A DNA stretch of 64,000 bases, from NCBI GenBank assembly GCA_041393815.1, contig JAWKJK010000006.1, forward strand, positions 103,858-167,857, written 5' to 3'. Below, piece by piece: positions 33,954-52,469 of this stretch; position 1 is the first letter of the stretch; each line of letters opens with the position of its first letter. The DNA comes from Candidatus Nanopelagicales bacterium. GTDB lineage: Bacteria > Actinomycetota > Actinomycetes > S36-B12 > JAWKJK01. The notes below the pieces were generated by a model. The model ran no database searches, was not told where the DNA came from, and saw only the letters and a program-made list of their open reading frames with translations. The translations under genes and the position numbers were made by a program.

Positions 33954-34946
33954 ATGCACGACCCCGGGGGCCTCGCGACCGGCCCGCGCGCGACGCTGTC
34001 CGCCGCGGTAGCCGAGCGCGTCGCCTTCGACTTCGACGAGGAGTCGTTCACCTGGGCCGACGTCGCCGAGGCCGCGGCGATCCGCGGCGAGTGGGACCGG
34101 CTGGTCGCGCGCGTCCGGGCCGGGCTGGCCGCCGAGGCGGCGGTGCCGCCCGATCGGCAGGACGCCGTACGAGAGGAGGCCCGCGCGGCGGGCATCGCCT
34201 TCCGTCAGCAGCGCAACCTGCTCACCGCGGACGGATTCACGGCCTGGCTGGAGCGGTGGGACATCACCGTCGACGGGTGGCGGGCCTACCTGCGCCGCGA
34301 GCTCGCACTCGCGGCGGGCACGCCGGACGCGGCGCACGTCGACCAGCCGGGTCCCGCCACCGAGCAGGTCCACGCGGCCGCGGTCCTCTCCGGCCTGCTG
34401 GCTGACCAGTCCGCGCTGCTGGCCGAGGACCTAGCGCTGCTCGGCGGCGTCCCGGACGCGGAGGACCGCAGCGCCGCGCTGGCAGCGATCGTCGCGGACG
34501 GGACCGCCGCGCGTGCCGCGGCGGTGGATGACCCCGAGGCGCTTGAGGCGATCGTCACCCGTCACCGGATGGACTGGTCCCGCGCCGCGGTCGACCTGGT
34601 CACCCTGCCGGACGAGGCCGCCGCGGACGAGGCGGCCCTGTGCGTGCGGCTGGACGGCCAGTCGCTCGCGGACGTGGCCGCGCTGGTCGGCACGCGGGTC
34701 GACTCCGTCGACGGGACCCTGTCCGACCTGCCCGAGCCGCTGCGGGGACCGGCGGTGGGCTCGCAGCCCGGCGACCTGCTCGGCCCGGTCGAGGACGACG
34801 GGGTCTACCGCCTCGCCGTGGTCGTCTCCCGGGTGGAGCCCGCGGCCGACGACCCGGAGGCGCTGGACCGGGCTCGCTCGCTGCTGCTCGCCCGGGTCGT
34901 CGAGGAGCGCACCCGCGGCCGAGTGAGGTGGGGTCGCGATGGCTGA
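33954..34946 (+). CDS. Parvulin/PpiC-like protein without signal peptide, putative peptide-maturation factor
   Basis: C-terminal QPGDLLGPVEDDGVYRLAVV resembles the parvulin C-terminus; N-terminal helical region (FRQQRNLLTADGFTAWLERW); overlaps the PCAT start. Confidence 0.5.
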   Translation: MHDPGGLATGPRATLSAAVAERVAFDFDEESFTWADVAEAAAIRGEWDRLVARVRAGLAAEAAVPPDRQDAVREEARAAGIAFRQQRNLLTADGFTAWLERWDITVDGWRAYLRRELALAAGTPDAAHVDQPGPATEQVHAAAVLSGLLADQSALLAEDLALLGGVPDAEDRSAALAAIVADGTAARAAAVDDPEALEAIVTRHRMDWSRAAVDLVTLPDEAAADEAALCVRLDGQSLADVAALVGTRVDSVDGTLSDLPEPLRGPAVGSQPGDLLGPVEDDGVYRLAVVVSRVEPAADDPEALDRARSLLLARVVEERTRGRVRWGRDG

Positions 34947-37900
34947 CGCGCTCGATCTGGACCCGCTGGCCCGGCAGCCGGCCTTCGCGCTCCTGGACGA
35001 CGACACCCGTGCGCTGCTGGTGGCCAGCATGGAGCCGGTCGACTTCCGCTTCGGCGAGGTGCTGGTGCGCGAGGGCGACGACCTCGAGTACTTCTACGTC
35101 GTCGTCGAGGGGGCTGCGCGTGTCCTCAAGCGCGGCGAGAACGACGACGAGGTCCCGCTGCGCACCCTGCGGCCCGGGGACGCGTTCGGCGAGTCCGACC
35201 TGCTGGCCGAGCGGCCGAGCTCGGCGACCCTGCGGGCCAGCGGGCGCGGTCGCGCGATGCGACTGCACCACACCGTGTTCGTCGGGATGCTCGAGAGCCA
35301 GCCAGGGGTGCGCGAGTCCTTCGAGGGCATGACCCGGCTGCGCGACCTGTGGGACTTCTTCCGCGTGCACGACGAGTTCGACGCCCTGTCCGACGCGGGG
35401 CTGGCCCTGCTCGCCCAGCGACTGGAGCCGGTCGACGTCGCCGACGACGAGGTCGTGGTCCGCCAGGGCGACCCGGTCGGGCCGATGTACGTGGTGCGGG
35501 AGGGCAAGCTGCGTGCCAGCGTGGACGGCGTCGGCGACGTGGACTTCCTGCGCAGCGGCGACTTCTTCGGAGAGACCGCCCTGTTCCGCGGCACCCCGCA
35601 GCCGGCGACCGTCCAGGCCGTCACCGAGGCAGAGGTGCTGCGGCTGCCCGTCGACGTGTTCCACCAGCTGCTGGAGTCCGAGCCCGGCTTCCGCGAGGCG
35701 CTGGCGGAGCGCAGCGAGCAGGCGTCGTACCGCACCCGGGCCCGGGTGCCGCTGGACTTCGCCGACGAGATCCTGCCGGTCGAGGCCCTGGCCACGGCGG
35801 CGCGCGTGTCGGCCCCGCCCCCCGTGATGGACGCCGACGTGGAGACCACGCCGCCGGAGAAGCGCGGCCGCCGGCCAGGGCGGCGCTTCCCGTTCGTCTT
35901 CCAGGTCGATGCCGCCGACTGCGGGGCCGCCTGCCTGGCGATGGTCTGCCGGTTCTTCGGCCGCAACGTCTCCCTGACGCACATCCGCAACCTGGCCCGG
36001 ACTGCCACCGACGGGACCACCCTGGCCGGCATCACCCGGGCCGCCGAGGACCTCGGCCTGACCGCCCGCTCCATCCGGGTCTCGGCCAGCCGGCTCGACC
36101 AGTTGCCGCTGCCCGCGGTCGTGCACTGGGAGGGCAACCACTGGATCGTGCTCTACCGGGTCGAGCGCACCCACGTCCGTGTCGCCGACCCCGCGAAGGG
36201 CCTGCGCCGGCTCCCGCGCGAGGAGTTCCTGTCGAAGTGGTCCGGCTTCGCGTCCACGATCGGCTACGACCCCGCGTTCGAGGATGCGCCGGAGGAGCGG
36301 ACCAACGCGGCCTGGATGTGGCCGATGGTCCGGCCGCACCGGGTCATGGTGGTCTGGGCGATCGTGCTGGCGTTCGTCGCCGCGGGCCTGGAGCTGCTGC
36401 TGCCCCTGCTCACCCAGTACGTCGTGGACAGCCTCGCCGAGTCCACCGAGCTCGACCTACTCCGCACGGTGGTGCCGGCCCTGTTGGTCACGATGCTGGG
36501 CATCGTCGCGGCCGGGACCCTCCAGCGGTACCTGCTCGCCAAGGTGGCCGTCCGCTTCGACGTGTCCACGCTGGACTTCCTCACCGGCCGGCTGCTGAAC
36601 CTGCCGGCCACGTACTTCGCCACCCGCCGCACCGGTGACATCGAGCGACGCCTCGGCGGGGCGCAGCAGGTCCGGCAGTTCTTCGTCGACAGCTCGGTCC
36701 AGGTGCTCACCGCGGGCGCGACCCTGGTGGCGGCGGTCGTGCTGATGTTCGTCTACAACGTCCCGCTGGCACTGCTCTTCCTGCTCACGTCCTCGACCTA
36801 CGTCTGGCTCATGCGGTTCTCCGCCACCCGGCTGCGGCCGATGTACGACAGCCTGGAGGAGTCGTACGGCAAGTACACCTCCGCGCAGATCGACGCGATC
36901 CGCGGGATCGAGACCGTCAAGGCGCTCGCGGTGGAGGACCGGCTGCAGCAACTGATGCTGGCGCGCTTCCAGACCCTGTCGGACCGGATCTTCCGCGGCC
37001 AGTTCCTCGGGCTGGTGTACGACTCCGGGCTGCAGCTGGTGACCTTCGCGACCTTCGGCGTCTTCCTGGTGGCCGGCTCGTACCAGGTCGTCAACGGCAA
37101 CCTGACGATCGGCCAGTTCGTGGCGTTCAACTCCCTGATCGCCCTGGCGACCGGTCCGTTGCTGATCGTGCTCGGGCTGTGGGACCGGTTCCAGCTGATG
37201 CGGGTCCTGCTGAACCGCCTCGACGACGTGCTGCTGAGCGAGCCTGAGCAGGGCAGCGACCGGACCGGGCTGCGCCAGGTCCCGTCGCTGGAGGGCCACA
37301 TCCGGGTCAGCGAGGTCGGCTTCCGGCTCGGTGGTCCAGAGGTGCCGCCGATCATCGACGACGTCTCCTTCGTGATCGAGCCGGGGGAGACCGTCGCCGT
37401 GGTCGGGCGCAGCGGGTCAGGCAAGACCACGCTGGTGAAGATGCTGGCCGGCCTGCTCGTACCGACGGAGGGGACCGTCGAGTTCGACGGCATCGACCTG
37501 ACCACGCTGGACTTCCGCTCGCTGCGGCGCCGGATCGGCGTGGTGCTCCAGGAGACGTACCTGTTCGACGACTCCATCGCCGGCAACATCGCCTTCGGCG
37601 AGCCGAACCCCGACCCGGAGCGGCTGCGCTGGGCCGCCGGGACCGCCGACGCGCTCGGCTTCATCGAGCGGCTGCCGCTGGGCTTCGACACCCGCATCGG
37701 GGAGTCGGGGATCGCGCTGTCCGGCGGGCAGAAGCAGCGGATCTCGATCGCCCGCGCGTTGTACAACCAGCCGCCGGTCCTGCTGTTCGACGAGGCCACC
37801 AGCGCCCTGGACTCCGAGTCCGAGCGCGCCGTCACGCAGGGCCTGGACGAGCTGCTGGTGGGCCGTACGTCCGTGGTGATCGCGCACCGGCTCTCGACGA

Positions 37901-38025
37901 TCCGCAACGCGGACCGCATCCTGGTCCTCGAACGTGGCCGCCTCGTCGAGCAGGGAACCCACGCCGAACTGCTCGCCCGGCGCGGCCTGTACTTCCACCT
38001 CGCCAGCCAGCAACTCCCCGGCTAG
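34939..38025 (+). CDS. Peptidase-containing ABC transporter (PCAT): 2 cNMP-binding-like domains + C39 peptidase + TM + NBD
   Basis: Two FGE cNMP folds; C39 QVDAADCGAACL, HW..NHWIVLY, VADP; GRSGSGKT, LSGGQKQR, LFDEATSALD, IAHRLST. Confidence 0.92.
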   Translation: MADALDLDPLARQPAFALLDDDTRALLVASMEPVDFRFGEVLVREGDDLEYFYVVVEGAARVLKRGENDDEVPLRTLRPGDAFGESDLLAERPSSATLRASGRGRAMRLHHTVFVGMLESQPGVRESFEGMTRLRDLWDFFRVHDEFDALSDAGLALLAQRLEPVDVADDEVVVRQGDPVGPMYVVREGKLRASVDGVGDVDFLRSGDFFGETALFRGTPQPATVQAVTEAEVLRLPVDVFHQLLESEPGFREALAERSEQASYRTRARVPLDFADEILPVEALATAARVSAPPPVMDADVETTPPEKRGRRPGRRFPFVFQVDAADCGAACLAMVCRFFGRNVSLTHIRNLARTATDGTTLAGITRAAEDLGLTARSIRVSASRLDQLPLPAVVHWEGNHWIVLYRVERTHVRVADPAKGLRRLPREEFLSKWSGFASTIGYDPAFEDAPEERTNAAWMWPMVRPHRVMVVWAIVLAFVAAGLELLLPLLTQYVVDSLAESTELDLLRTVVPALLVTMLGIVAAGTLQRYLLAKVAVRFDVSTLDFLTGRLLNLPATYFATRRTGDIERRLGGAQQVRQFFVDSSVQVLTAGATLVAAVVLMFVYNVPLALLFLLTSSTYVWLMRFSATRLRPMYDSLEESYGKYTSAQIDAIRGIETVKALAVEDRLQQLMLARFQTLSDRIFRGQFLGLVYDSGLQLVTFATFGVFLVAGSYQVVNGNLTIGQFVAFNSLIALATGPLLIVLGLWDRFQLMRVLLNRLDDVLLSEPEQGSDRTGLRQVPSLEGHIRVSEVGFRLGGPEVPPIIDDVSFVIEPGETVAVVGRSGSGKTTLVKMLAGLLVPTEGTVEFDGIDLTTLDFRSLRRRIGVVLQETYLFDDSIAGNIAFGEPNPDPERLRWAAGTADALGFIERLPLGFDTRIGESGIALSGGQKQRISIARALYNQPPVLLFDEATSALDSESERAVTQGLDELLVGRTSVVIAHRLSTIRNADRILVLERGRLVEQGTHAELLARRGLYFHLASQQLPG

Positions 38026-38060
38026 CAGTCCGCGGCCGGGTCGACCACAGGAGGAACCAG

Positions 38061-38201
38061 ATGACCGACGACACGCAGCGCGGCCCCGAGGACGAGATCG
38101 AGGACCTCGACGTGCGCGCCGAGGAGGCCGACGCCGTCGCCGGCGGTGCCCGCCTCAACACCGGCGACGAGGACCTGGAGGACCTCGAGGTCCAGCGCTG
38201 A
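38061..38201 (+). CDS. Putative RiPP precursor peptide 1 (46 aa, double-glycine leader)
   Basis: AGGAGG RBS; MTDDTQRGPEDEIEDLDVRAEEADAVAGG-ARLNTGDEDLEDLEVQR; directly after the PCAT; absent from the ORF track. Confidence 0.8.
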   Translation: MTDDTQRGPEDEIEDLDVRAEEADAVAGGARLNTGDEDLEDLEVQR

Positions 38202-38230
38202 CGCGGCGGTCCGTCCCCCCGAGACCGGGG

Positions 38231-38356
38231 CTACATGCCGTCGATCCGGCGCTTGGCCATCCCCCCTCCGCCGGCGATGTCGTCCGCCGAGTCGTCGGGA
38301 ACCTGGAGGTCGTCGAGCTCCTCGTCGGGGATGGGCTCGTCGTCGGGTCCGTACAT
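38231..38356 (-). CDS. Putative RiPP precursor peptide 2 (41 aa, double-glycine leader)
   Basis: GGGGGAG RBS; MYGPDDEPIPDEELDDLQVPDDSADDIAGG-GGMAKRRIDGM; same leader motif as precursors 1 and 3. Confidence 0.72.
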   Translation of the reverse strand: MYGPDDEPIPDEELDDLQVPDDSADDIAGGGGMAKRRIDGM

Positions 38357-38440
38357 GGCTCCCCCTGCGGGAGTGGGTGACGCGCGCCGGCGTCGTGCCG
38401 GAGCACCTACTGTCGGTCCTCCGCGCTGGCGGGGCAAGGG

Positions 38441-39574
38441 GTGACGCCGATGGAACCTGGACGCGAGCGCAAGCGCGTCCTGCGCGGCACCCACCGGACC
38501 CGTGCCCCGGAGGACACCTGGGAGCTGGTCCGGCCGCTGCTCCGGGACCTCGGCATCAGCCGGGTCGCCGACGTGACCTGGCTGGACGACCTGGGTATCC
38601 CGGTCTTCCAGGCGATCCACCCGCGCGGCCGGTCGTTCGCGGTGTCCCAGGGGAAGGGCCTCACCCGCGACCTGGCGCGCGTGTCCGCCGTCATGGAGGG
38701 CATCGAGGGCCTGGCGGCGGAGCGGCCGCCGGTCGCCCTGCGGAGCGCCACCGCCGTCGAGCTCACCCTCGACTACGACGTCGGGAACCTGGCCCTGCCC
38801 GGTCATGCCGGGACCGCACGCCGGGCCCGGCTGGACTGGTGCGACGCTCGCGACCTGCTGGGGGGCGGGACCTCGTACGTCCCCGCGCCCGTGGTGTCAC
38901 TGGACTGGACCGTGCATGCCCGGTGGGCACCGCGGCTGTTCCCCTCCACCAGCGATGGGCTCGCCAGCGGCAACACGTACGCGGAGGCCGCGCTGCACGG
39001 ACTGCTGGAGCTGGTGGAGCGGCACGCGGTCGCGGTGTCGCCGGGGATCCGGGTCGACATGACGGCGCCCCTCCCCCCGGATGCCGTGGCCCTGGCCCGG
39101 CTGGTCGCGGCCGCGGGCGGGGTGGTGGACGTGTGGTTCCATCCCCATCCGTCCCGGCTTCCGGTGTTCTCCGCGTTGCTGCGTGACGATCGGCATCCGG
39201 TCCCGTACGGAGGCAGTGGCTGCCACCTCGACCCGCAGGTGGCACTGTGCCGGGCGATCACCGAGGCCGCACAGTCCAGGGCCACCGTGATCGCCGGATC
39301 GCGCGACGACCTGGGGCCCGCCGTCTACCGCTGGCGACGGGCGCGTCCCCTCGCCGCCGCACCCGGGACTCCTGATCGCCGAGTCAGCGTGGGGAATGTG
39401 CTGACCGCGGCAACCGTCACGGCGTCGGACGACGTCGCCACCGACCTCCACCGGGTCCTCGGCGCGCTCGGCCCGGACCATCCCCACGTGCTGGCGACCG
39501 ACCTGTCGGTGGCGGACGGCGTGCACGTGGTCAAGGTCGTCGTCCCCACACTCTCCCTTCCGGCGGGGCACTGA
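38441..39574 (+). CDS. YcaO-family protein (TfuA-associated, thioamide-forming type)
   Basis: GISRVADVTWLDDLGIPVF, SQGKG, AVMEGIE, TSDGLASGNT, EAALHGLLELVER, GSGCH, AITEAAQSR, VVKVVVP. Confidence 0.9.
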   Translation: MTPMEPGRERKRVLRGTHRTRAPEDTWELVRPLLRDLGISRVADVTWLDDLGIPVFQAIHPRGRSFAVSQGKGLTRDLARVSAVMEGIEGLAAERPPVALRSATAVELTLDYDVGNLALPGHAGTARRARLDWCDARDLLGGGTSYVPAPVVSLDWTVHARWAPRLFPSTSDGLASGNTYAEAALHGLLELVERHAVAVSPGIRVDMTAPLPPDAVALARLVAAAGGVVDVWFHPHPSRLPVFSALLRDDRHPVPYGGSGCHLDPQVALCRAITEAAQSRATVIAGSRDDLGPAVYRWRRARPLAAAPGTPDRRVSVGNVLTAATVTASDDVATDLHRVLGALGPDHPHVLATDLSVADGVHVVKVVVPTLSLPAGH

Positions 39575-39575
39575 C

Positions 39576-40973
39576 GTGCCGGGACGACACACGTACGTCT
39601 TCGTCGGTCCCACGCTGCCCGCCGACGAGGTGCGCCGGCTGGTGCCGGGTGCCGCGGTGCTCCCGCCCATCGCAGCCGGGGACCTGTGGTCCGTCCCCGT
39701 CCGGGCCGGTGACGTCGTCGTGGTGCTGGACGGGTACTTCCGCGAGCAGCGGGCCGTGCGGCACAAGGAACTGGTCGCCCTCCTCGACGCGGGGGTGACC
39801 GTCGTCGGCGCGGCCAGCATGGGCGCGCTGCGCGCCGCCGAGCTCGCCGATGTGGGGATGCGCGGCTCGGGCCAGGTGTTCGCGTGGTACCGGGACGGCG
39901 TCATCGAGGGCGATGACGAGGTCGCCGTGGTCCACGGCGACGCGGTGCACGAGTACCCCGTGCACACCCGCGCCCTGGTGGACGTGCGCGCGGGCCTCGA
40001 CCGCGCCCGCGGCCGGGGCCTGGTCGAGGACACCGTGGCGGCGGCCGTGATCGCAGCGCTGGTCCCGATGCCGTTCGTGGAGCGCGACGACGAGACCCTG
40101 CGACGCCGTGTGGCCGCGGGGGTCGGGCCGCCCGGGAAGGCCGCGCTGGACCTGGCCCTCGGCACGTGCTCCGTCGACATCAAGCGGGCCGACGCGGTCG
40201 CGCTCCTGCGGGCCGTGGCAGCGGAGGACCTGCCCTCGCCCCCGCCGCCGCACCCGGACCCGTTCGTGCGCGACGCCGATCCGCGCCGGTCCGCCGTGTA
40301 CCTGTCGTGGCGGACGGCGGAGGCGCCGGCGGCCACCGCCTCCCCGCTGAGTGAGTCGGACGTGCTGGCGTGCGCGCGGATCCTGGCCCGCGACTACCCC
40401 GCTTTCCACGAGCGGGTCGCGCTCCGTGCCGCGGCGGCCGATACCCGGGCGCTGGGCCTGCCACCGCCGGCCGGGGCCGGACGTGCCGCGGCTCTGCGGC
40501 AGCTGTTGTCGGCGCGCGGCCTGCTGCCGCACCCGGACGCGGACCCGTCGGAGCTGACCGGGGACTGGCTCGGCGAGGTCGAACGCAGCCGGCTCACAGA
40601 GGAGGGCGCCCTAGTGGCGTACCTGCGCCGTACCCACACGGCGTCGTGGCAGGCCGGGGACGCGGTCCACGCGCTGCGCCGCGAGGGAGCGTACGACCGG
40701 TGGCTGGCTGTCGCGGAGCGCGTGAGCGCGTTCAACGACCGCATTGCCGAGCAGCGGCCGTCGTTCGACCACGACCGGATCCCGGTCGACGCCATGCGGT
40801 CCGCCTGCGCGCAGCGGTGGGGCCTGGACGCACCGACGGCGGGTCACGAGTGGCTGCTCGCGCTGGCCGATCGCGGCTACGACGGCGAGGCCCGGTGGTT
40901 GCGCGACGCGCGGGTGGTCCATCCGTACCTGGCGCTTCGGGCGTCCCGTCACAGCGACACCGACCGGGTGTGA
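39576..40973 (+). CDS. TfuA-like protein with C-terminal extension
   Basis: YVFVGPTL, PPIAAGDL, LDGYF, VRHKE, GAASMGALRAAEL, GSGQVF..YRDG.IEGDDEVAV. Confidence 0.9.
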   Translation: MPGRHTYVFVGPTLPADEVRRLVPGAAVLPPIAAGDLWSVPVRAGDVVVVLDGYFREQRAVRHKELVALLDAGVTVVGAASMGALRAAELADVGMRGSGQVFAWYRDGVIEGDDEVAVVHGDAVHEYPVHTRALVDVRAGLDRARGRGLVEDTVAAAVIAALVPMPFVERDDETLRRRVAAGVGPPGKAALDLALGTCSVDIKRADAVALLRAVAAEDLPSPPPPHPDPFVRDADPRRSAVYLSWRTAEAPAATASPLSESDVLACARILARDYPAFHERVALRAAAADTRALGLPPPAGAGRAAALRQLLSARGLLPHPDADPSELTGDWLGEVERSRLTEEGALVAYLRRTHTASWQAGDAVHALRREGAYDRWLAVAERVSAFNDRIAEQRPSFDHDRIPVDAMRSACAQRWGLDAPTAGHEWLLALADRGYDGEARWLRDARVVHPYLALRASRHSDTDRV

Positions 40974-41086
40974 CCGCGTCGACCGAGCGCCATCACGGGT
41001 CTTGTCCGCGGCGGTGGCCCGGCGTACCGTCGCGCCACGCCGATCCGCGGGGGACCGGCCGAGCAGCCAGCAGCCGAGGAGTGGTC

Positions 41087-41221
41087 ATGACGGATCCGCA
41101 GCGCGAGGACGATGAGGTCGAGGACCTGCCGGTCCCGGCGGACTCGGCGGACGAGGTGGCCGGAGGCGCTCGCCGTACCGGCCCCGGGACGCAGACGGAG
41201 GACGAGCTCTACATCGGCTGA
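41087..41221 (+). CDS. Putative RiPP precursor peptide 3 (44 aa, double-glycine leader)
   Basis: GAGGAG RBS; MTDPQREDDEVEDLPVPADSADEVAGG-ARRTGPGTQTEDELYIG. Confidence 0.8.
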   Translation: MTDPQREDDEVEDLPVPADSADEVAGGARRTGPGTQTEDELYIG

Positions 41222-46286: not shown

Positions 46287-47402
46287 GTGGGCCCCGGGCC
46301 ACGCACCTCCTCGTGGCGCCCGGCCGACGCGGTCGTCGGGGGGAGCGCCCGATCGGCTGCGACGCCGTACTGGACCCTGGCCGCGTTCCTGCTCTTCGGG
46401 GGCCTGGTCGGGATCTCCCAGCTGTGGGTGTTCGAGGACCTGAACCCGGACCGGGTGCAGGCCCCGTTCGTCGGCGTCGTGGCGGTCCTCCTCGCCGTCC
46501 TGACCGTCGCCGTGCTCCCCCGGCTGCCGGGGTGGTGGCTCACCATCGTGGTCGGCGTGCTCGAGTTGCTGCTGTGCCACCTCGCGGCCACGTCCACCGA
46601 TCCGGAGATCCTGCAGGTCGTCCCGATCCTGATCGCCTGGGTGATGGTCTGGAACGGGTACTTCCTCTCGCGCCAGGCCCTGCTGGTCCACCTCGTGCTG
46701 GTCTCGGCCGTCTACCTGGTGGCGATCCAGGTGAACCCGCAGTGGATCGGGTGGTTCGGCTATGCGGTGACAGTCGTCAGCTTCACCGCGCTCGCGTTGC
46801 TCATCCACCACCTGGCCGCCACCCTGCGGGACAACGCGACCCACGACCCGCTGACCGGGTGCCTCAACCGCGCCGGGCTCGGGGTGGCGGCCGACCGCGC
46901 CCGGGCGTCCGCCGCCCGGGAGGGTCAGGACATCCACGTCGCCGTCCTCGACATCGACGCGTTCAAGGAGTTCAACGATCGGCACGGCCACGTGGCCGGG
47001 GACCGGCTGCTGCGGCACGCGGCGACCCAGTGGCGGGCGGAGCTGCGGCCGCAGGACCTGTTGGCCCGGGTGGGCGGCGACGAGTTCGTGGTCGTACTGC
47101 CCGGCGCCACCCGGACCGGCGTCGACGCCGTCCGGACCCGCCTGCACGCCAGCCGCGACCTGCGCTGGTCCTGGGGGGCCGTGCGCTGGCGGCCGGACGA
47201 GAGCCTCCAGGCGGCCCTGGACCGGGCCGACCGGGAGATGTACGCGATGAAGCGGCGGCGGGCGGTGGCACCGATGCATCCCCTGGCCGACGTCCCGTGC
47301 TCGGGGTGGCTGCCGGGGTCGCGATCGTCCCGTTCCTCAGGAGGCGAGTACGACGGAGGCGACGTGCTCGCCGACGGCGAGGGCGCTGGTCCATCCGGGT
47401 GA
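46287..47402 (+). CDS. Membrane-bound diguanylate cyclase (GGDEF); start approximate
   Basis: About 6 TM; HDPLTGCLNR, LDIDAFKEFNDRHGH..GD, RVGGDEF. Confidence 0.88.
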   Translation: MGPGPRTSSWRPADAVVGGSARSAATPYWTLAAFLLFGGLVGISQLWVFEDLNPDRVQAPFVGVVAVLLAVLTVAVLPRLPGWWLTIVVGVLELLLCHLAATSTDPEILQVVPILIAWVMVWNGYFLSRQALLVHLVLVSAVYLVAIQVNPQWIGWFGYAVTVVSFTALALLIHHLAATLRDNATHDPLTGCLNRAGLGVAADRARASAAREGQDIHVAVLDIDAFKEFNDRHGHVAGDRLLRHAATQWRAELRPQDLLARVGGDEFVVVLPGATRTGVDAVRTRLHASRDLRWSWGAVRWRPDESLQAALDRADREMYAMKRRRAVAPMHPLADVPCSGWLPGSRSSRSSGGEYDGGDVLADGEGAGPSG

Positions 47403-48548
47403 GACCGCGTTGAGCACGTGGGTGGACCGGTCGTCGCCCCGCACCACGAAGTCCATCTCCAGCCGGCCGGACTCCCGGTGCAGCAGCTGGGCGCGCACGC
47501 CGGGGCGGCCGCGGACCCGGAAGGCGCGCTCCGGCAGGTCGTCCACGAGCGCGCAGGCGCGGTGCACCAGCCAGCGGCGGGAGTACTTCGGCACCTCGCT
47601 GCGCAGGAGTGCGGGCACGTCATGGTGGGGGCTTCGCAGGAAGCGCGGCAGCGCCCGCGCGATCTCGCCGCTCTCGTGCCGGGCCAGCCCGGGGACGCGG
47701 CCGTAGTCCTCGCGACGCAGCGCCGGGATCGCGGTCGGGCCGACCTTGACCCGGCCGTCGACGGTCACCGTCAGGTGGACGCCCAGGAACGGGTTGCGCG
47801 GGTCCGGCACCGGGTAGACGTGCCGGGTGAGCCAGCCGGGCGGCAGGTCCGCGTACCAGTACAGGCCCTTGAACGGCAGCATCACGTAGTCGTCGCACTG
47901 GCCGAACCAGCTCGCCAACCGGTCGGCGTACAGCCCGGCGGTGTTCACGACGTGACCGGCGGCGATGGTGCCGGTCGTGGTCCGGACCAGCCCCGGTGCG
48001 GCGCCGACGACCGCCACGCCGAGGCGTACGTCCCCGCCGCGCGCGCGGACCCGTGCCGCCAGGGCCTCCACCACGGCGGCGGGATCCGCGACCGAGGTCG
48101 TGGGGGACCAGATCGCCGCCCGGTGAGTGACGGCGCGGGGCTCCAGCTCGCGCAGCCCCTGCTCGTCCACCCGCTCCAGCGGGACCCCGTTGGCCTCGCC
48201 GCGGCGGAGCAGCTGCGCCAGTGCGGGCAGCTCGTCCTCGCTGCGTGCCACGACGACCTTGCCGCAGCGGCGGACCGCGACCCCCGCCTCCTCGCAGAAG
48301 GCGTGCAGCAGGACGTTGCCGCGCCGGGTGAGCCGGGCCTTGAGGCTGTCCGGGGAGTAGTAGAAGCCGGCGTGCAGCACGCCGCTGTTGCGGCCGGAGG
48401 CGTGCGCGGCCAGCCGCGGCTCCTTCTCGAGCACCCGTACGGTGAGGTCGGGGTCGCGGGCCAGCAGCGCGTCGGCGACCGCCAGGCCGACGATGCCGCC
48501 GCCGACCACGACCACGTCGCCGGACCCGCTCGCGCTCCTCGGGCTCAC
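47337..48548 (-). CDS. lhgO: L-2-hydroxyglutarate oxidase-like FAD oxidoreductase
   Basis: VVVVGGGIVG, HASGRNSGVLHAGFYY, YPVPDP..PFLGVH, GVRAQ, LNAVSPGWTS. Confidence 0.85.
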   Translation of the reverse strand: MSPRSASGSGDVVVVGGGIVGLAVADALLARDPDLTVRVLEKEPRLAAHASGRNSGVLHAGFYYSPDSLKARLTRRGNVLLHAFCEEAGVAVRRCGKVVVARSEDELPALAQLLRRGEANGVPLERVDEQGLRELEPRAVTHRAAIWSPTTSVADPAAVVEALAARVRARGGDVRLGVAVVGAAPGLVRTTTGTIAAGHVVNTAGLYADRLASWFGQCDDYVMLPFKGLYWYADLPPGWLTRHVYPVPDPRNPFLGVHLTVTVDGRVKVGPTAIPALRREDYGRVPGLARHESGEIARALPRFLRSPHHDVPALLRSEVPKYSRRWLVHRACALVDDLPERAFRVRGRPGVRAQLLHRESGRLEMDFVVRGDDRSTHVLNAVSPGWTSALAVGEHVASVVLAS

Positions 48549-48583
48549 CGCGGACCACCTCCGCCCTCCGCGCCATCCCACCA

Positions 48584-48636
48584 CGCGCCGTCTCTCGGCC
48601 GCGCGCCGTCTTTCGGCCGCGCGCCGTCTGGGGCCG
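48584..48636. repeat. 18-bp tandem repeat, about 3 copies
   Basis: CGCGCCGTCT(C/T)TCGGCCG at 48584 and 48602; degenerate copy at 48620. Confidence 0.75.
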
Positions 48637-48648
48637 CCCGCTCTCCCA

Positions 48649-48707
48649 CGAGTGCTGCCCCGTGGGGGTTGCGGGACCGTCCCGAAACCCCCACGCGCGA
48701 GCACTCG
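48649..48707. repeat. REP-like palindromic element, copy 1
   Basis: CGAGTGCTGCCCCGTGGGGGTT...AACCCCCACGCGCGAGCACTCG 22-bp arms with inner CGGGAC/GTCCCG pairing. Confidence 0.8.
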
Positions 48708-48752
48708 ACGGGGTTGGGGGGTGAGGAATGCAGGGGCGGGCGCGGGTGTTTA

Positions 48753-48772
48753 ATATCGACAGACATCTATGT
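48753..48772. promoter_or_regulatory. Imperfect palindrome resembling an ArsR/SmtB-type operator
   Basis: ATATCGA-N6-TCTATGT in an AT-rich patch just before the Cys-rich mini-ORF. Confidence 0.4.
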
Positions 48773-48789
48773 ATGTGGAGGCGAGCGAG

Positions 48790-48885
48790 ATGCTGCACAC
48801 CCCGGACGCGCTGAGCAGGTCCCTACTCACCCTGCGGGTCGAGGACCTGCGCGACGCGGCCACCTGCTGCCGCACCTGCTGCTGA
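48790..48885 (+). CDS. Small Cys-rich peptide (31 aa; 38 aa if the in-frame ATG at 48769 is used)
   Basis: GGAGG RBS 9 nt upstream; MLHTPDALSRSLLTLRVEDLRDAATCCRTCC. Confidence 0.55.
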   Translation: MLHTPDALSRSLLTLRVEDLRDAATCCRTCC

Positions 48886-48924
48886 GGCACCGAGCGCGCA
48901 CCCCCGCGGAACCGCCCGCCCCAT

Positions 48925-48989
48925 CGTCGAGTGCTCGCGCGTGGGGGTTCCAGGCCCGTCCCGAAACCCCCACGGGCGAGCACTCGACG
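48925..48989. repeat. REP-like palindromic element, copy 2
   Basis: CGTCGAGTGCTCGCGCGTGGGGGTT...AACCCCCACGGGCGAGCACTCGACG, 25-bp arms with 1 mismatch; shares GTCCCGAAACCCCCACG.GCGAGCACTCGACGG with copy 1. Confidence 0.85.
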
Positions 48990-49003
48990 GAGGGGCGGCG
49001 GGG

Positions 49004-49696
49004 CTAGCTGGCAGGGGTGGGGCCGTTGGCCACCCGGGAGCCGTCGGGACCCGGGACCAGCCGGACGACCCGATCGGCGACCAGCGCCGCCTCGTGCGGG
49101 TCGTGCGTGACGTGCACCGCCGGGATGCCGAGCGCGCGCAGCAGGTCCCGGACCTCCTGCCCGAGCCGGTCCCGCAGGTCCCGGTCGAGCGCGCCGAACG
49201 GCTCGTCCAGCAGCAGCAGGCGGGGTCGGGGGGCCAGCGCGCGCGCGAGCGCCACCCGCTGGGCCTGGCCTCCCGACAGCGTGTCGACGTGCCGGCGTCC
49301 GTACCCGTCGAGGTCGACCAGGCTCAGCAGTTCGGCCACCCGCGTCCGCCGCTGCTCGGCGGGCAGGCCGAGGGACTCCAGGCCGTAGCCGACGTTGCCG
49401 GCCACGTCCCGGTGCGGGAACAGCACCGCGTCCTGGAACACCAACCCGATCCGTCGCAGGTGCGCGGGGATGGGGCCGAGATCCGTTCCGTCCCAGCGCA
49501 CTTCGCCCGCATCGGGCTCGAGCAGTCCGGCCACGACCCGCAGCAGCGTCGACTTCCCCGAGCCGCTGGGGCCGAGCAGCGCCACCGACTCCTCCGGCCG
49601 GACCCGCAGGTCCACCCCGTCGAGCACCGGCTCGCCGTCCAGCACCACCCGCAGCCCCGAGACGGCGAGGCCGGCGTCCGGGCCGAACGCAGTCAT
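49004..49696 (-). CDS. thiQ: Thiamine ABC transporter ATP-binding subunit
   Basis: GPSGSGKS, LSGGQAQR, LLDEPF; last gene of a TPP-riboswitch operon. Confidence 0.82.
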   Translation of the reverse strand: MTAFGPDAGLAVSGLRVVLDGEPVLDGVDLRVRPEESVALLGPSGSGKSTLLRVVAGLLEPDAGEVRWDGTDLGPIPAHLRRIGLVFQDAVLFPHRDVAGNVGYGLESLGLPAEQRRTRVAELLSLVDLDGYGRRHVDTLSGGQAQRVALARALAPRPRLLLLDEPFGALDRDLRDRLGQEVRDLLRALGIPAVHVTHDPHEAALVADRVVRLVPGPDGSRVANGPTPAS

Positions 49697-51387
49697 CACA
49701 GCCCGCCGCTGGGCCGGCCGCGCAGCCGCTCGGTGGCCAGCACCAGCGCCGCTGTGACGAGCACCAGGACCACCGCCAGCGCGGCAGCCTGGCCGGCGTT
49801 GGCCTCGCCGGGCCGCGACAGCAGCGCCCCGATCTGGACCGGCAGGGTCGGGGTGTCCGACCGCGCCAGGAAGGAGGTCGCCCCGAACTCCCCGAGGGAC
49901 ACCGCGGTGGCGAACCCGGCGCCGATGCCGAGCGCGCGCGCCAGCGCGGGCAGGTCGACCGTGCGCCAGGTCCGTCCGGGCGGGGCGCCCAGTGTGGCCG
50001 CGACCTCCCGCAGCCGCGGGTCCACCGAGCGCAGTACCGGCAGCACCGTGGCGACCACCAGGGGGACCGCGATCAGCGCATGACCGATCGGGACGATCAG
50101 CGCCGACCCGCGCAGGTCGACGGGGGCGCGCGAGAACGTGATCAGCAGCCCGAAGCCGAGCGTGACCGCGCTGGTCCCCAGCGGCAGAAGCACCGCGGAG
50201 CCCAGGGCGTCGCTCCCCCTCCGGGCGTACGCGATCGCGCTGGCCGCCGCGCCCCCGATGACGACCGCCAGCACGACCGTCACCAGGGCATACGTCAGCG
50301 AGACGCGCGCGGAGTCCCAGGCCGCCACGTCCCGCGTGGTGGGCCCGGCGGTCGTCAGCGCGGCCCACCAGTCCAGACCCCAGCCGTCGCCGACCCGCAG
50401 CGACCGCACGGCCAGCGCGACCATCGGCGCGACCACGTACGCCGCCTCGAGCAGCACCAGCAGCACCAGCAGCCGGTCGCCCCACGTCCGTGGCCGGTGC
50501 AGGACCGCGTCCGCGCGGGCCCAGCGCTGCCGCACGGACAGCCGGCGCTGCAGGACCGCGGCGACGACCAGCACGAGGCCGACCGCGAGCACCTGCAGCA
50601 GGCACAGCGCGGCGGCTCCGGGCAGGTCGAACAGCTGCACGGTGCGCCGGTAGATCTCCACCTCCAGCGTCGCCGTGGTGGGACCGCCGAGGGTGAGCAC
50701 CACCCCGAACGAGGTGAACGTGAAGAGGAACACCAGCGCGGCGGACGCGAGCACCGCCGGTCGCAGCAGCGGCCAGGTCACGGTGCGGAACACCCGCACC
50801 GGTCCCGCCCCGAGGGTCCGCGCGGCCTCCTCCTGCCGCGGGTCCAGGTGCGCCCACAGCCCGCCGACCACCCGGATCACGACGGCGAGGTTGAAGAACA
50901 CGTGGGCGGCCAGGATGGCGGCCAGCGTCCCGGTCCAGCCGGACGGGAGCAGGGCCCGGAACGCCGCGCCGACGACGATGGTCGGCAGCACGAACGGCAC
51001 GGTCATCAACGCCAGCAGCCCGCGGCGCCCCGGGATGCGCATGCGGTGCAGCACGTACGCCGCCGGGATCCCCAGGAGCAGCGTGAGAGCGGTGCTCAGC
51101 ACCGCCTGGACCGCCGTGAAGCCGGCGACCCGCCAGGTCTGCGCCGACGTGAGGACGTCCAGCGCGGACGGGTCGACGCTGCGCGCCAGGACGGTCACCA
51201 GCGGCCAGGCGAAGAACACCCCCAGGAACGCCAGCGGAAGCAGCCCGAACCACAGTGCCCGCGGCGGTGTGACCCGGCGGCGGTCATGCGGCCGCGCACC
51301 GCGGACGGGTGGCGCGGCGGTCGCGGTCGGGGGCAGCCCCGCGGTCGTGGTCAGCGCAGCACCACCTGGGTCCAGGCGTCGACCCAT
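49696..51387 (-). CDS. thiP: Thiamine ABC transporter permease (two BPD_transp_1 halves); true start probably near 51354
   Basis: VPFVLPTIVVG, EEAARTLGA, EVAATLGA EAA loops; SLGEFGAT. Confidence 0.85.
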   Translation of the reverse strand: MGRRLDPGGAALTTTAGLPPTATAAPPVRGARPHDRRRVTPPRALWFGLLPLAFLGVFFAWPLVTVLARSVDPSALDVLTSAQTWRVAGFTAVQAVLSTALTLLLGIPAAYVLHRMRIPGRRGLLALMTVPFVLPTIVVGAAFRALLPSGWTGTLAAILAAHVFFNLAVVIRVVGGLWAHLDPRQEEAARTLGAGPVRVFRTVTWPLLRPAVLASAALVFLFTFTSFGVVLTLGGPTTATLEVEIYRRTVQLFDLPGAAALCLLQVLAVGLVLVVAAVLQRRLSVRQRWARADAVLHRPRTWGDRLLVLLVLLEAAYVVAPMVALAVRSLRVGDGWGLDWWAALTTAGPTTRDVAAWDSARVSLTYALVTVVLAVVIGGAAASAIAYARRGSDALGSAVLLPLGTSAVTLGFGLLITFSRAPVDLRGSALIVPIGHALIAVPLVVATVLPVLRSVDPRLREVAATLGAPPGRTWRTVDLPALARALGIGAGFATAVSLGEFGATSFLARSDTPTLPVQIGALLSRPGEANAGQAAALAVVLVLVTAALVLATERLRGRPSGGL

Positions 51388-52469
51388 GCGGTGCGGCCGG
51401 CGTCGACCTGCGCGGGGTCCAGCGTCAGCGGGTCCGCGGGGACCGCGGCGAAGTCGGTGAACACCTGCGGCAGTGGCGTCCCGCTGACGGCCGGGAAGAC
51501 GAACATGGACAGCGGCACGTCGGCCTGGACCGCCGGCGACAGCAGCCAGTCGACGACCAGCCGGGCCGCCTCGGGCTGCTCGGTGCCCGCGAGCACCCCG
51601 GCGTACTCGATCTGCCGGTAGCAGCCGTCGGTCAGCACCGACGTCGAGGGCTTCGTCGGCTTGGGGTCGGCGGCGTACACGATCTCCGCCGGCGGGCTGG
51701 ACGCGTACGACACCACCAGCGGCCGGGTCCCGTCGCCACCACCCGCGGTGAACTCGCCCTGGTAGGCCTCGGTCCAGCCGTTCGCCACCGTCACGCCGTT
51801 GTCGCGCAACCGGGCCCAGTAGTCCTCGAACCCGTCCTCGCCGTACCGCGCGACCGTGGCGAGCAGGAACGCCAGGCCCGGCGAGGACGTGGCCGGATTC
51901 TCCACGACCAGCAGGTCCCGATAGCGCGGGTCGGCGAGGTCCTCCAGCGTGGCCGGTGGCGCCAGGTCGGCGTCGGCGAACCAGGCGTCGTCGATGTTGA
52001 CGCAGACGTCGCCGTAGTCGACGGGGGTGACGACGCCGGCGCCGGAGTCCACCAGATCCGCGGGCACGCCGGCCGCGGCGGGAGACACGTACGCGTCGAA
52101 CACGCCCGCGTCGACCGCGCGCGACAGCAGGGTGTTGTCGACCCCGAACAGCACGTCGCCCTCGGGGTTGCCGGCCGTGAGGGCGGCCTTGTTGACCAGC
52201 TCACCCGCGTCGCCGGCCTGCGCGATCCGCAGGGTCACGCCGGTGCTGCGCTCCAGCTCGTCCAGCAGGTCCGTCGAGAGGGCGAACGAGTCGTGGGTGA
52301 GCAGCGTGACCGTCGTCGGGGCGACCGAGGTGACCGGAGTGGCGCTGGTATCCGCGGCTGCCGTCGCGCCGCCGGAGTCCGACGACGTCGGGCCCGCGCC
52401 GGCCGAGCAGGCGGCGAGGGCGACGCTCACGGTCGCCGCGGCCACCAGGTGGGAGAAGGGGATTCGCAC
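51351..52469 (-). CDS. thiB: Thiamine ABC transporter substrate-binding lipoprotein
   Basis: Lipobox LAAC; LLTHDSF, GDVLFGVDN, ATSSPGLAF, VVSYASSP, CYRQIEYAG; downstream of a TPP riboswitch. Confidence 0.88.
   Translation of the reverse strand: MRIPFSHLVAAATVSVALAACSAGAGPTSSDSGGATAAADTSATPVTSVAPTTVTLLTHDSFALSTDLLDELERSTGVTLRIAQAGDAGELVNKAALTAGNPEGDVLFGVDNTLLSRAVDAGVFDAYVSPAAAGVPADLVDSGAGVVTPVDYGDVCVNIDDAWFADADLAPPATLEDLADPRYRDLLVVENPATSSPGLAFLLATVARYGEDGFEDYWARLRDNGVTVANGWTEAYQGEFTAGGGDGTRPLVVSYASSPPAEIVYAADPKPTKPSTSVLTDGCYRQIEYAGVLAGTEQPEAARLVVDWLLSPAVQADVPLSMFVFPAVSGTPLPQVFTDFAAVPADPLTLDPAQVDAGRTAWVDAWTQVVLR

What the first reader, a model, noticed from the sequence alone, without database searches (positions are those of the whole stretch)
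48753..48885. Unannotated Cys-rich mini-protein ending CCRTCC behind an ArsR-like palindrome
The ORF has a GGAGG RBS, an AT-rich promoter patch and an imperfect ATATCGA-N6-TCTATGT palindrome; an alternative in-frame ATG at 48769 could be leaderless. Two vicinal Cys pairs suggest As(III) or soft-metal binding, as in a minimal metallothionein or metallochaperone. No same-strand gene follows, so it is unlikely to be an attenuator leader (inference).
Basis: partly seen in the sequence, partly recalled or inferred. Interest (0 to 1): 0.65.

Follow-up and report, generated by a model that had tools for sequence, protein, structure and literature searches.

The report
Arsenic-repressor-controlled tetracysteine mini-protein gene
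An unannotated 31-codon gene whose product ends in CCRTCC, the CCxxCC pattern used in the laboratory to capture arsenic dyes, lies directly behind a DNA site that otherwise occurs in this genome only at the arsenic-resistance promoters, so it is probably an arsenic-induced, arsenic-binding mini-protein of a kind I found described in no paper.

Summary
Window 48790-48885 (+) encodes MLHTPDALSRSLLTLRVEDLRDAATCCRTCC, with GGAGG 8 nt upstream, an in-frame ATG at 48769, and one of only 22 AT-rich patches in a 4.04 Mb, 73.5% GC genome.

The "ArsR-like palindrome" is real. It is better read as ATATCGAC-N4-ATCTATGT (48753-48772). A weight matrix built only from the four sites in this genome's arsR/arsC-acr3 and arsM promoters scores it 23.8 bits. 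The training sites score 24.3-30.2, and the next genome-wide hit scores 17.7. The same motif clusters in arsR/arsI promoters of same-order relatives.

Independently, this is the only one of 30,767 six-frame ORFs that ends in CC..CC, and none of about 3,540 called proteins contains that motif. Codon statistics favour coding (GC3 97%; rank 33 of 2,551 unassigned sORFs).

No homologue was found anywhere, so the gene is an orphan. It is bracketed by two copies of a REP-like hairpin.

Best reading: an ArsR-repressed gene for a tetracysteine peptide that binds As(III) or trivalent organoarsenicals. The main rivals are a decayed relic of an ars promoter and an ArsR-controlled non-coding RNA.

The parts
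48790..48885 (+). sORF, 31 codons plus stop: MLHTPDALSRSLLTLRVEDLRDAATCCRTCC*. Favoured start.
   Evidence: GC1/2/3 = 61/58/97%. Codon log-odds +10.5 bits. The only ORF in the genome ending in CC..CC. AF2 single-sequence model: helices 6-12 and 17-30, mean pLDDT 62, so low confidence.
48769..48789 (+). In-frame upstream extension (MYVEASE) from the alternative ATG at 48769. It lies inside the operator's right half and has no SD. Less likely start.
   Evidence: It adds +8.75 bits of codon score, but the stretch also contains the SD block TGGAGGCG shared with the arsM and arsC leaders.
48776..48783 (+). Shine-Dalgarno block TGGAGGCG (GGAGG at 48777-48781), 8 nt before ATG 48790.
   Evidence: The same 8-mer lies between operator and start codon in the arsM leader and in the arsC leader, where it reads GTGGAGGCG.
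48753..48772 (.). Predicted ArsR operator, 8-4-8: ATATCGAC-agac-ATCTATGT.
   Evidence: PWM from the four ars-promoter sites gives 23.8 bits, rank 5 in the genome behind the four training sites (24.3-30.2); the next hit scores 17.7. It is the only strong site in the window. ATATCGA occurs only 13 times in the genome. The same motif clusters at arsR/arsI promoters of relatives.
48751..48756 (+). Candidate -10 hexamer TAATAT (TANNNT type), overlapped by the operator's left half. Inferred transcription start near 48763.
   Evidence: Read from the sequence. The consensus sigma-70 scan found no full -35/-10 promoter. This is inference only. No TANNNT hexamer is present on the minus strand of the patch.
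48745..48779 (.). AT-rich patch, one of 22 in the 4.04 Mb genome with at most 33% GC in 30 nt.
48861..48882 (+). 12-nt tandem duplication, CACCTGCTGC-CG-CACCTGCTGC, encoding TCCR|TCC. It creates the second Cys pair.
   Evidence: family D6: two 10-nt exact copies spaced 12 nt apart.
48649..48711 (.). REP-like palindromic hairpin, copy 1, upstream of the sORF promoter.
   Evidence: (D1, I3). Member of a 23-locus family.
48916..48998 (.). REP-like palindromic hairpin, copy 2, 31 nt after the sORF stop and 6 nt before the stop of the convergent ABC ATPase gene. Probable bidirectional terminator.
   Evidence: I2: 39-nt arms, 87% complementary; the modelled transcript 48760-49003 folds with z = -5.5, dominated by this hairpin. 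It has no U-tail.

Best explanation
The locus is a small, separate transcription unit of the ArsR (arsenic) regulon.

Without arsenic, the genome's single CC-arm ArsR (G000:C2:823813-824181) would bind the 8-4-8 operator at 48753-48772. That operator overlaps the -10 element and the transcription start, so binding would block transcription. As(III) or a trivalent organoarsenical would release ArsR. A roughly 230-nt mRNA would then run from about 48763 to the REP hairpin at 48916-48998 and be translated from ATG 48790 into a 31-residue peptide.

The peptide's probably helical body ends in CCRTCC. These four thiols fall at positions i, i+1, i+4 and i+5, the arrangement that binds arsenic in the synthetic tetracysteine tag. 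They would chelate As(III), or two R-As(III) units.

The peptide would thus act as an inducible cytoplasmic arsenic buffer, or as a hand-off carrier for ACR3 or ArsM. That is the role of a metallothionein or of ArsD, without membership of either family.

Shown here: the ORF, its coding-type composition, the operator match, the motif's link to ars genes, and the uniqueness of CCxxCC.

Inferred: ArsR binding, promoter position, transcription, translation, arsenic binding and physiological role.
For: 1. Operator. A PWM was trained only on the four sites in the arsR<->arsC-acr3 promoter (C2:824205, C2:824243) and the arsM promoter (C2:162970, C2:162986). It ranks the sORF site first among all non-training positions of the genome: 23.8 bits against 24.3-30.2 for the training sites and 17.7 for the next hit. 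The other 21 AT-rich patches score below 13.

2. The anchoring genes are real ars genes. ArsR/SmtB scores 98.4 bits (cut-off 55), ACR3 437.8 (cut-off 282.8) and ArsM 303.8 (cut-off 263).

3. In same-order relatives the same motif sits in clusters between ArsR and ArsI/CadI genes (L185, L211, L183, L212). One relative's site, TTCGACAGACGTCAATGT, even shares the AGAC spacer.

4. The three own promoters share one architecture: operator, a few nt, TGGAGGCG, 3-8 nt, ATG.

5. CC..CC is absent from about 3,540 called proteins, and no called protein has CC in its last 8 residues. This is the only one of 30,767 six-frame ORFs ending in CC..CC. The rarest Cys motif and the only extra ArsR box lie 17 nt apart.

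6. Coding signature: GC3 97%, and rank 33 of 2,551 among unassigned sORFs, next to known small genes.

7. Chemistry from the literature. Vicinal Cys pairs are As(III) ligands in ArsD (Cys12/13/18; pairs at 112/113 and 119/120; PMC4562236). They are also As(III) ligands in AfArsR and CgArsR (PMC11868830). CCXXCC is the biarsenical-binding tetracysteine motif (PMC3665623).
Against: - No homologue exists anywhere, so there is no evolutionary proof of selection. phmmer against 1.84 billion representatives gave 0 hits. The word search found none. 60 same-order genomes gave only noise, as did 160 lhgO-syntenic loci.
- The codon score of the 31-aa form is only at the 10th percentile of true genes, and 2.5% of off-frame windows exceed it.
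- There is only one strong operator here, whereas the ars promoters carry pairs.
- No canonical -35 element was found, and the promoter scan found nothing.
- The peptide is not called as a gene in any public assembly.
- With 4 Cys in 31 residues the peptide is far less Cys-rich than metallothioneins.
- Because REP copies bracket the unit, it could be a recently shuffled fragment.
Confidence: 0.55

Rival explanations
1. Relic or decoy. The unit is a decaying leftover of a duplicated ars promoter plus the first codons of an ars gene (for example an arsR N-terminal CC arm), trapped between REP copies. ArsR may still bind, but the ORF has no function of its own.
For: - It is an orphan with no homologues.
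- It lies between two REP copies, the only such pair within 300 nt among the 23 loci.
- The C-terminus was made by a 12-nt slippage duplication.
- By eye it resembles ArsR N-arms: own ArsR LQVLDPVDGPACCPT against sORF LRVEDLRDAATCCRT.
- It has a single operator rather than a pair.
Against: - The ArsR-arm resemblance is not significant. The best local score is 34; shuffles with the Cys tail held fixed average 35.4 (p = 0.66).
- A 20-nt AT-rich operator that scores like functional sites has survived in a 73.5% GC genome. So have an intact SD, ATG, open frame and 97% GC3.
- The duplication added a second Cys pair and kept the frame and the stop, rather than breaking them.
Confidence: 0.2
2. ArsR-controlled non-coding or antisense function. 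The promoter drives a short RNA that acts as RNA, or reads through REP2 as antisense to the convergent ABC-transporter operon. Alternatively the operator controls the divergent lhgO gene. In each case the ORF is incidental.
For: - The modelled transcript is strongly structured (z = -5.5).
- REP2 lacks a U-tail, so read-through into 49004-52469 is conceivable.
- lhgO (47337-48548, minus strand) is the nearest divergent gene.
Against: - The coding-type GC3 pattern and the SD at ideal spacing are unexplained by an RNA-only role.
- The genome-unique CCxxCC ending directly behind the only extra ArsR box would be a coincidence.
- The lhgO start is more than 200 nt away, behind REP1 and three 18-nt repeats.
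- The minus strand of the patch has no TANNNT hexamer.
Confidence: 0.12
3. RiPP precursor. The peptide is a substrate of the YcaO-TfuA/PCAT cluster 7.5 kb upstream (33954-41221), or of another azole- or thioamide-forming enzyme, with TCCRTCC as the core.
For: - A Cys/Thr-rich C-terminal core follows a helical 'leader'.
- A YcaO-TfuA cluster with three precursors lies in the same window (notes).
- The tetrapeptide VEDL is shared with precursor 3.
Against: - Similarity to the four double-glycine precursors is not significant (observed 21, null 18.4 +/- 3.1, p = 0.21).
- There is no GG cleavage motif.
- Unrelated genes (cupin, antiporter, GGDEF, lhgO) lie in between.
- The ArsR operator is unexplained by this reading.
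Confidence: 0.04
4. Chance ORF, or a cysteine-sensing leader peptide.
For: - In 73% GC DNA, open frames of 30-60 codons are common (2,551 in unassigned sequence).
- Poly-Cys leader sORFs are known in mycobacteria (my own knowledge).
Against: - The joint occurrence of the best non-training ArsR site and the only CC..CC-ending ORF.
- The GC3 pattern.
- There is no same-strand gene downstream to attenuate.
Confidence: 0.05

Closest known systems
SmtB-SmtA (also AzuR-NmtA): an ArsR/SmtB-family repressor controlling a small Cys-rich metal-sequestering protein (PMC4353254, PMC8790569)
   Same: The logic is the same. A thiolate-sensing ArsR/SmtB repressor occludes the promoter of a small Cys-bearing binder of the same toxic element.
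   Different: - There is no sequence or family relation (no Pfam or NCBIfam hit).
- The peptide has 31 aa with 4 Cys, against about 56 aa with 9-10 Cys.
- The inferred ligand is arsenic, not Zn or Cd.
- The gene is unlinked to its repressor (a different contig) rather than divergent from it.
ArsD arsenic metallochaperone (vicinal pairs Cys12-13, Cys112-113, Cys119-120; PMC4562236)
   Same: Both belong to an ars regulon and use vicinal cysteine pairs near a terminus. A hand-off role to a pump is plausible for both.
   Different: - ArsD is a thioredoxin-fold protein of about 120 aa that partners the ArsA ATPase.
- Here there is no fold domain, I looked for no arsA, and the pump in this genome's ars operon is ACR3.
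Synthetic tetracysteine tag CCXXCC for biarsenical dyes (PMC3665623, PMC3157907)
   Same: The Cys spacing is identical (CCRTCC), at the end of a probably helical segment.
   Different: The tag is an engineered sequence optimised as CCPGCC. No natural arsenic-regulated counterpart is described in the papers I searched.
Cys-pair micro-ORFs beside arsR genes reported by earlier agents of this scan in other genomes (e1-4130109, e1-2874240, e1-4327006, e1-4495752, e1-2241702). These are AI notes and I did not check them.
   Same: Both are unannotated tiny genes with paired cysteines under presumed ArsR control, several of them in Actinomycetota.
   Different: - Those are 16-24 codons, almost all Cys pairs, and adjacent to arsR.
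- This one has a 24-residue non-Cys body and a single CCxxCC ending.
- It lies far from arsR and has no detectable relatives (one search found no look-alike).

Membership tests
ArsR regulon of this genome | Operator matching the sites in the autoregulated arsR promoter and other ars promoters | tested here: met
   PWM score 23.8 bits, within 0.5 bit of the weakest training site and 6 bits above any other genomic position. The motif-ArsR link is conserved in relatives.
ArsR regulon of this genome | Operator placed so that it occludes the promoter of the target gene | tested here: inconclusive
   The operator overlaps the only TANNNT hexamer (TAATAT, 48751-48756) and ends 17 nt before the ATG. 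The operator-TGGAGGCG-ATG layout matches arsM and arsC. No transcription-start data exist, and the consensus scan found no promoter.
ArsR regulon of this genome | Derepression by As(III) or organoarsenicals; binding by ArsR protein | not testable with these tools
EMSA and RT-qPCR are needed.
Bacterial metallothionein (SmtA/BmtA type) | Match to the family profile and a high Cys density forming a metal-thiolate cluster | tested here: not met
   No Pfam family at E <= 0.1 and no meaningful NCBIfam hit. The peptide has 4 Cys in 31 residues (13%).
ArsD metallochaperone | ArsD thioredoxin-like domain with the Cys12-Cys13-Cys18 site | tested here: not met
   No Pfam or NCBIfam match. Only the vicinal-pair feature is shared.
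Tetracysteine (CCXXCC) arsenical-binding motif | Cys at positions i, i+1, i+4 and i+5 | tested here: met
   CCRTCC at residues 26-31. It is unique in the genome. Binding itself is untested.
RiPP precursor of the neighbouring YcaO-TfuA/PCAT cluster | Shared acidic leader ending in a double-glycine motif, and linkage to the cluster | tested here: not met
   Similarity p = 0.21, and no GG motif. The sORF lies 7.5 kb away with unrelated genes between.
Cys-responsive attenuator leader sORF | A same-strand regulated gene directly downstream | tested here: not met
   Downstream lie the REP hairpin and three convergent minus-strand genes.
ArsR N-terminal arm fragment (truncated arsR paralogue) | Significant sequence similarity to ArsR N-arms beyond the CC pair | tested here: not met
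   Best local score 34 against 121 arms; the shuffle null is 35.4 +/- 3.9 (p = 0.66).

The most novel reading that the evidence does not exclude
The peptide is a natural 'FlAsH tag': a gene-encoded tetracysteine trap tuned for trivalent organoarsenicals such as methylarsenite. Each such arsenical needs only two thiols, so each vicinal pair would hold one R-As(III).

Under ArsR control it would protect the cell from the MAs(III) that its own ArsM makes, or that competitors release as an antibiotic. It might hand the arsenical on to ACR3 or ArsM.

Together with the Cys-pair micro-ORFs noted elsewhere in this scan, it would establish gene-encoded arsenic chelation in bacteria. A recent paper lists intracellular chelation only for eukaryotes (PMC11868830).
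Probability: 0.2. Interest if true: 0.8.

Novelty: new variant of a known kind. Interest (0 to 1): 0.62.

Why it matters
Bacterial arsenic resistance is described as efflux, reduction and methylation. One recent paper lists intracellular chelation only for eukaryotes (PMC11868830).

An ArsR-controlled 31-residue peptide with a CCxxCC ending would add a gene-encoded chelator or carrier to the bacterial ars toolbox. It would also be a natural counterpart of the tetracysteine tag, and a very small part for arsenic biosensing or capture.

It shows as well that regulon-guided searches, going from an operator matrix to nearby sORFs, can find micro-genes that homology and gene callers miss. The peptide is an orphan assembled partly by a 12-nt duplication, so it may also be a case of very recent gene birth inside a stress regulon.

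Tried and rejected
**Homology searches, all empty**
- Pfam and NCBIfam.
- The word-index search with the 43-aa open frame. The 38-aa query itself was too short for that tool and for the search for related loci.
- phmmer against 1.84 billion representatives.
- tblastn-type search of 60 same-order genomes, best E = 0.03, noise on inspection.

**Synteny**
- 160 lhgO loci from genomes and metagenomes, at most 72% identical, contain no related sORF. The window's family is represented by a single genome in the held set.

**A family of CCxxCC-ending peptides in the order**
- I scanned 390 genomes for the pattern TGYTGYN6TGYTGYTRA.
- The striking clusters (7 copies in G108, also G085, reading DPRCCRNCC*) are REP-like hairpins with low GC3, not genes.

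**Descent from an ArsR N-terminal arm**
- It is attractive by eye but not significant (p = 0.66).

**Link to the thioamide RiPP cluster**
- Not significant (p = 0.21), and there is no GG motif.

**Rfam**
- Only sub-threshold miRNA models matched the REP hairpin.

**Strain-level variation**
- Logan contigs that carry lhgO or the ABC ATPase break at the REP copies (L238, L239).
- The peptide is not a called gene anywhere.

**Other**
- A genome-wide search for ATCGAC-N4-GTCGAT with up to 2 mismatches is unspecific: 67 hits, mostly GC-substituted and in coding sequence. The composition-aware PWM was needed.
- The pattern scan over 100 relatives was noisy and useful only for picking loci.

Full report
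**What is there.** The window comes from a 4.04 Mb, 73.5% GC actinobacterial genome. Its family is represented by this one genome in the held set, and all "relatives" are only same-order. LhgO relatives are mostly labelled Nanopelagicales or Actinomycetota MAGs.

Two minus-strand genes bound a 455-nt gap:
- an L-2-hydroxyglutarate-oxidase-like gene at 47337-48548 (NF008726, 329 bits; this start matches a public gene call);
- the last gene of an ABC-transporter operon at 49004-49696.

Read left to right, the gap holds:
- three 18-nt tandem repeats (48581-48634);
- a REP-like palindromic hairpin (48649-48711);
- an AT-rich patch (48745-48779);
- GGAGG (48777-48781);
- the ORF 48790-48885, MLHTPDALSRSLLTLRVEDLRDAATCCRTCC;
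- a second copy of the hairpin (48916-48998).

Its start coordinate, 48753, marks the palindrome rather than the reading frame.

**Is the ORF more than chance?** Open frames of this length are trivial in 73% GC DNA, so I tested composition instead.
- GC at codon positions 1/2/3 is 61/58/97%, the signature of real genes in this genome.
- I trained a codon log-odds model on long genes. It gives +10.5 bits for the 31-codon form and +19.2 for the 38-codon form. True-frame 31-codon windows average +22.9, and off-frame windows average -30.3.
- The 31-codon score lies at the 10th percentile of true frames, and 2.5% of off-frames exceed it.
- I then called about 3,540 genes, covering 90% of the genome. 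The ORF ranks 33rd of 2,551 sORFs in the remaining 409 kb. Its neighbours in the ranking include L36, L34, a KdpF-like peptide and the known thioamide precursors.

This is moderate support for coding, not proof.

**The AT-rich patch and the operator.** Only 22 places in the genome have at most 33% GC over 30 nt, and all are intergenic.

One other patch, upstream of an arsenite methyltransferase gene (ArsM, 303.8 bits), shares the heptamer ATATCGA with the sORF patch. ATATCGA occurs only 13 times in the genome. Two copies are in the arsM promoter and one is in the divergent promoter between arsR and arsC-acr3 (ArsR 98.4 bits, ACR3 437.8 bits).

These promoters carry four 8-4-8 sites of the form ATATCGAC-N4-GTCGATAT. 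I built a weight matrix from those four sites only, using the genome's own base composition as background, and scanned both strands of the whole genome.
- The four training sites score 24.3-30.2 bits.
- The sORF site, ATATCGACagacATCTATGT (48753-48772), scores 23.8.
- The next hit scores 17.7 and lies inside a gene.

None of the other AT-rich patches comes close, so the score is not an AT-richness artefact.

In same-order relatives the motif occurs in clusters of two or three, between ArsR genes (98-99 bits) and ArsI/CadI genes (186-193 bits). I therefore regard it as the ArsR operator of this clade. That is an inference from co-occurrence, not from a binding assay.

The three promoters of this genome also share a layout: operator, a few bases, TGGAGGCG, then ATG 3-8 nt later. 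This points to ATG 48790 as the start. The operator overlaps the only TANNNT hexamer of the patch (TAATAT, 48751-48756). The ATG at 48769 lies 12 nt after that hexamer, which is too far for a leaderless start. This last step is inference.

**The cysteine ending.** Cys makes up 0.7% of the called proteome.
- No called protein contains CC..CC.
- None has CC in its last eight residues.
- Among 30,767 six-frame ORFs of at least 20 codons, only this one ends in CC..CC.

The genome's only extra ArsR box and its only CCxxCC-ending ORF are 17 nt apart. The two observations were made independently of each other, and I take the coincidence as the main argument that this is a functional unit.

The second Cys pair arose by a 12-nt tandem duplication, ACC TGC TGC CGC | ACC TGC TGC TGA.

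Vicinal cysteines are the recurrent arsenic ligands of ArsD and of the three ArsR site types (PMC4562236, PMC11868830). CCXXCC is the motif engineered to bind biarsenical dyes (PMC3665623). A single-sequence AF2 model puts residues 17-30 in a helix, but at mean pLDDT 62 it carries little weight.

**Relatives.** I found none (see Tried and rejected for the searches). A scan of 390 same-order genomes for DNA that can encode CCxxCC-stop gave intriguing clusters. These proved to be REP-type hairpins that read as ...DPRCCRNCC* in one frame. That is a useful warning for searches of this kind.

The idea that the peptide descends from the CC-bearing N-terminal arm of an ArsR failed a shuffle test (p = 0.66). 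Similarity to the double-glycine precursors of the YcaO-TfuA cluster 7.5 kb upstream is also insignificant (p = 0.21).

The gene is thus an orphan. It lies between two copies of a hairpin that occurs at 23 loci, usually singly and downstream of convergent genes. This fits recent insertion or assembly of the unit. Public short-read assemblies break at these hairpins, so no strain-level variation could be read.

**Mechanism proposed.**
1. ArsR occupies 48753-48772 and blocks the promoter.
2. Arsenicals release ArsR.
3. A short mRNA ending at the second hairpin is translated into the 31-mer.
4. Its four thiols chelate As(III), or two R-As(III) units.
5. The peptide buffers the cytoplasm or feeds ACR3 or ArsM.

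Only the sequence-level parts are shown. ArsR binding, induction, translation and chemistry are inferred. I put this reading at about 0.55.

The main rival, at about 0.2, is a still ArsR-bound but functionless relic. Next, at about 0.12, is an RNA-level or divergent-gene role for the operator. RiPP-precursor, attenuator and pure-chance readings are each unlikely.

**Comparison and novelty.** The unit works like SmtB-SmtA (a repressor plus an inducible thiol-rich binder) or like ArsD (vicinal pairs within an ars regulon), but it fails the family tests for both.

I found no paper describing an ArsR-controlled tetracysteine mini-protein. Earlier AI notes of this scan report Cys-pair micro-ORFs next to arsR in other genomes. 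I did not verify them, and this peptide shares no sequence with them. If they hold, this would be a distinct, unlinked variant of an emerging class.

I rate it a new variant of a known kind, interest 0.62.

Noticed in passing
window 48649-48711 and 48916-48998; 21 further loci in G000 (e.g. C5:3695-3765, C1:340648-340719): A family of 55-83-nt GC-rich palindromic REP-like hairpins (core CGAGTGCTCGCGCGTGGGGGTT...AACCCCCACGCGCGAGCACTCG) occurs at 23 loci, mostly just downstream of convergent genes. Only here do two copies lie within 300 nt of each other. In two frames they read as MLARGGFGT..PPRASTRR and inflate spurious ORFs.
   Followed up: partly
window 48581-48634: Three tandem 18-nt repeats (CCRCGCGCCGTCTNNNGG) lie between the lhgO start and the first hairpin. 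They may be a regulatory array for lhgO. Unexplained.
   Followed up: no
G000:C2:166198-166341 (-), outside the window: An unassigned 47-codon sORF, VGADVTDQKQPQTDQQADQVEDIEVPEDQAEGVAGGKPLMPTGPLPT, has the same acidic leader ending in AGG as the three precursors of the window's YcaO-TfuA cluster. It may be a fourth, unlinked precursor.
   Followed up: no
L185:992-1483 (-), L211:1533-2048 (-): ArsI/CadI-family proteins of same-order relatives carry C-terminal tails with two vicinal Cys pairs, the last at the very end (...EQAACCGAG...KSAACC*). A terminal CC tail recurs in arsenic proteins of this clade.
   Followed up: no
L213-L219 (G108, G085): REP-like hairpins of another genus (GGACCCGCG-TGCTGCCGCAACTGCTGCTGA ... 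TCAGCAGCAGTTGCGGCAGCA-CGCGGGTCC) read as ...DPRCCRNCC-stop in one frame, with seven copies in one genome. They mimic a Cys-rich peptide family but have no coding signature.
   Followed up: yes
G000:C1:449790-449951, C2:519209-519373, C3:490517-490690 (outside the window): Three paralogous 53-57-codon sORFs with CxxxxxP...C..CG zinc-ribbon-like cysteines (VTAPDLHHRP.C....) remain in sequence not covered by my gene calls.
   Followed up: no
G000:C4:278139-278195 (outside the window): An AT-rich patch with TCGATATCTAGGGTGGAG resembles part of the arsM leader (TCGATATCTAGGGCTGGAGG). It lies between a MerR-like gene and a WhiB-like gene, and it scores low with the full ArsR matrix.
   Followed up: no
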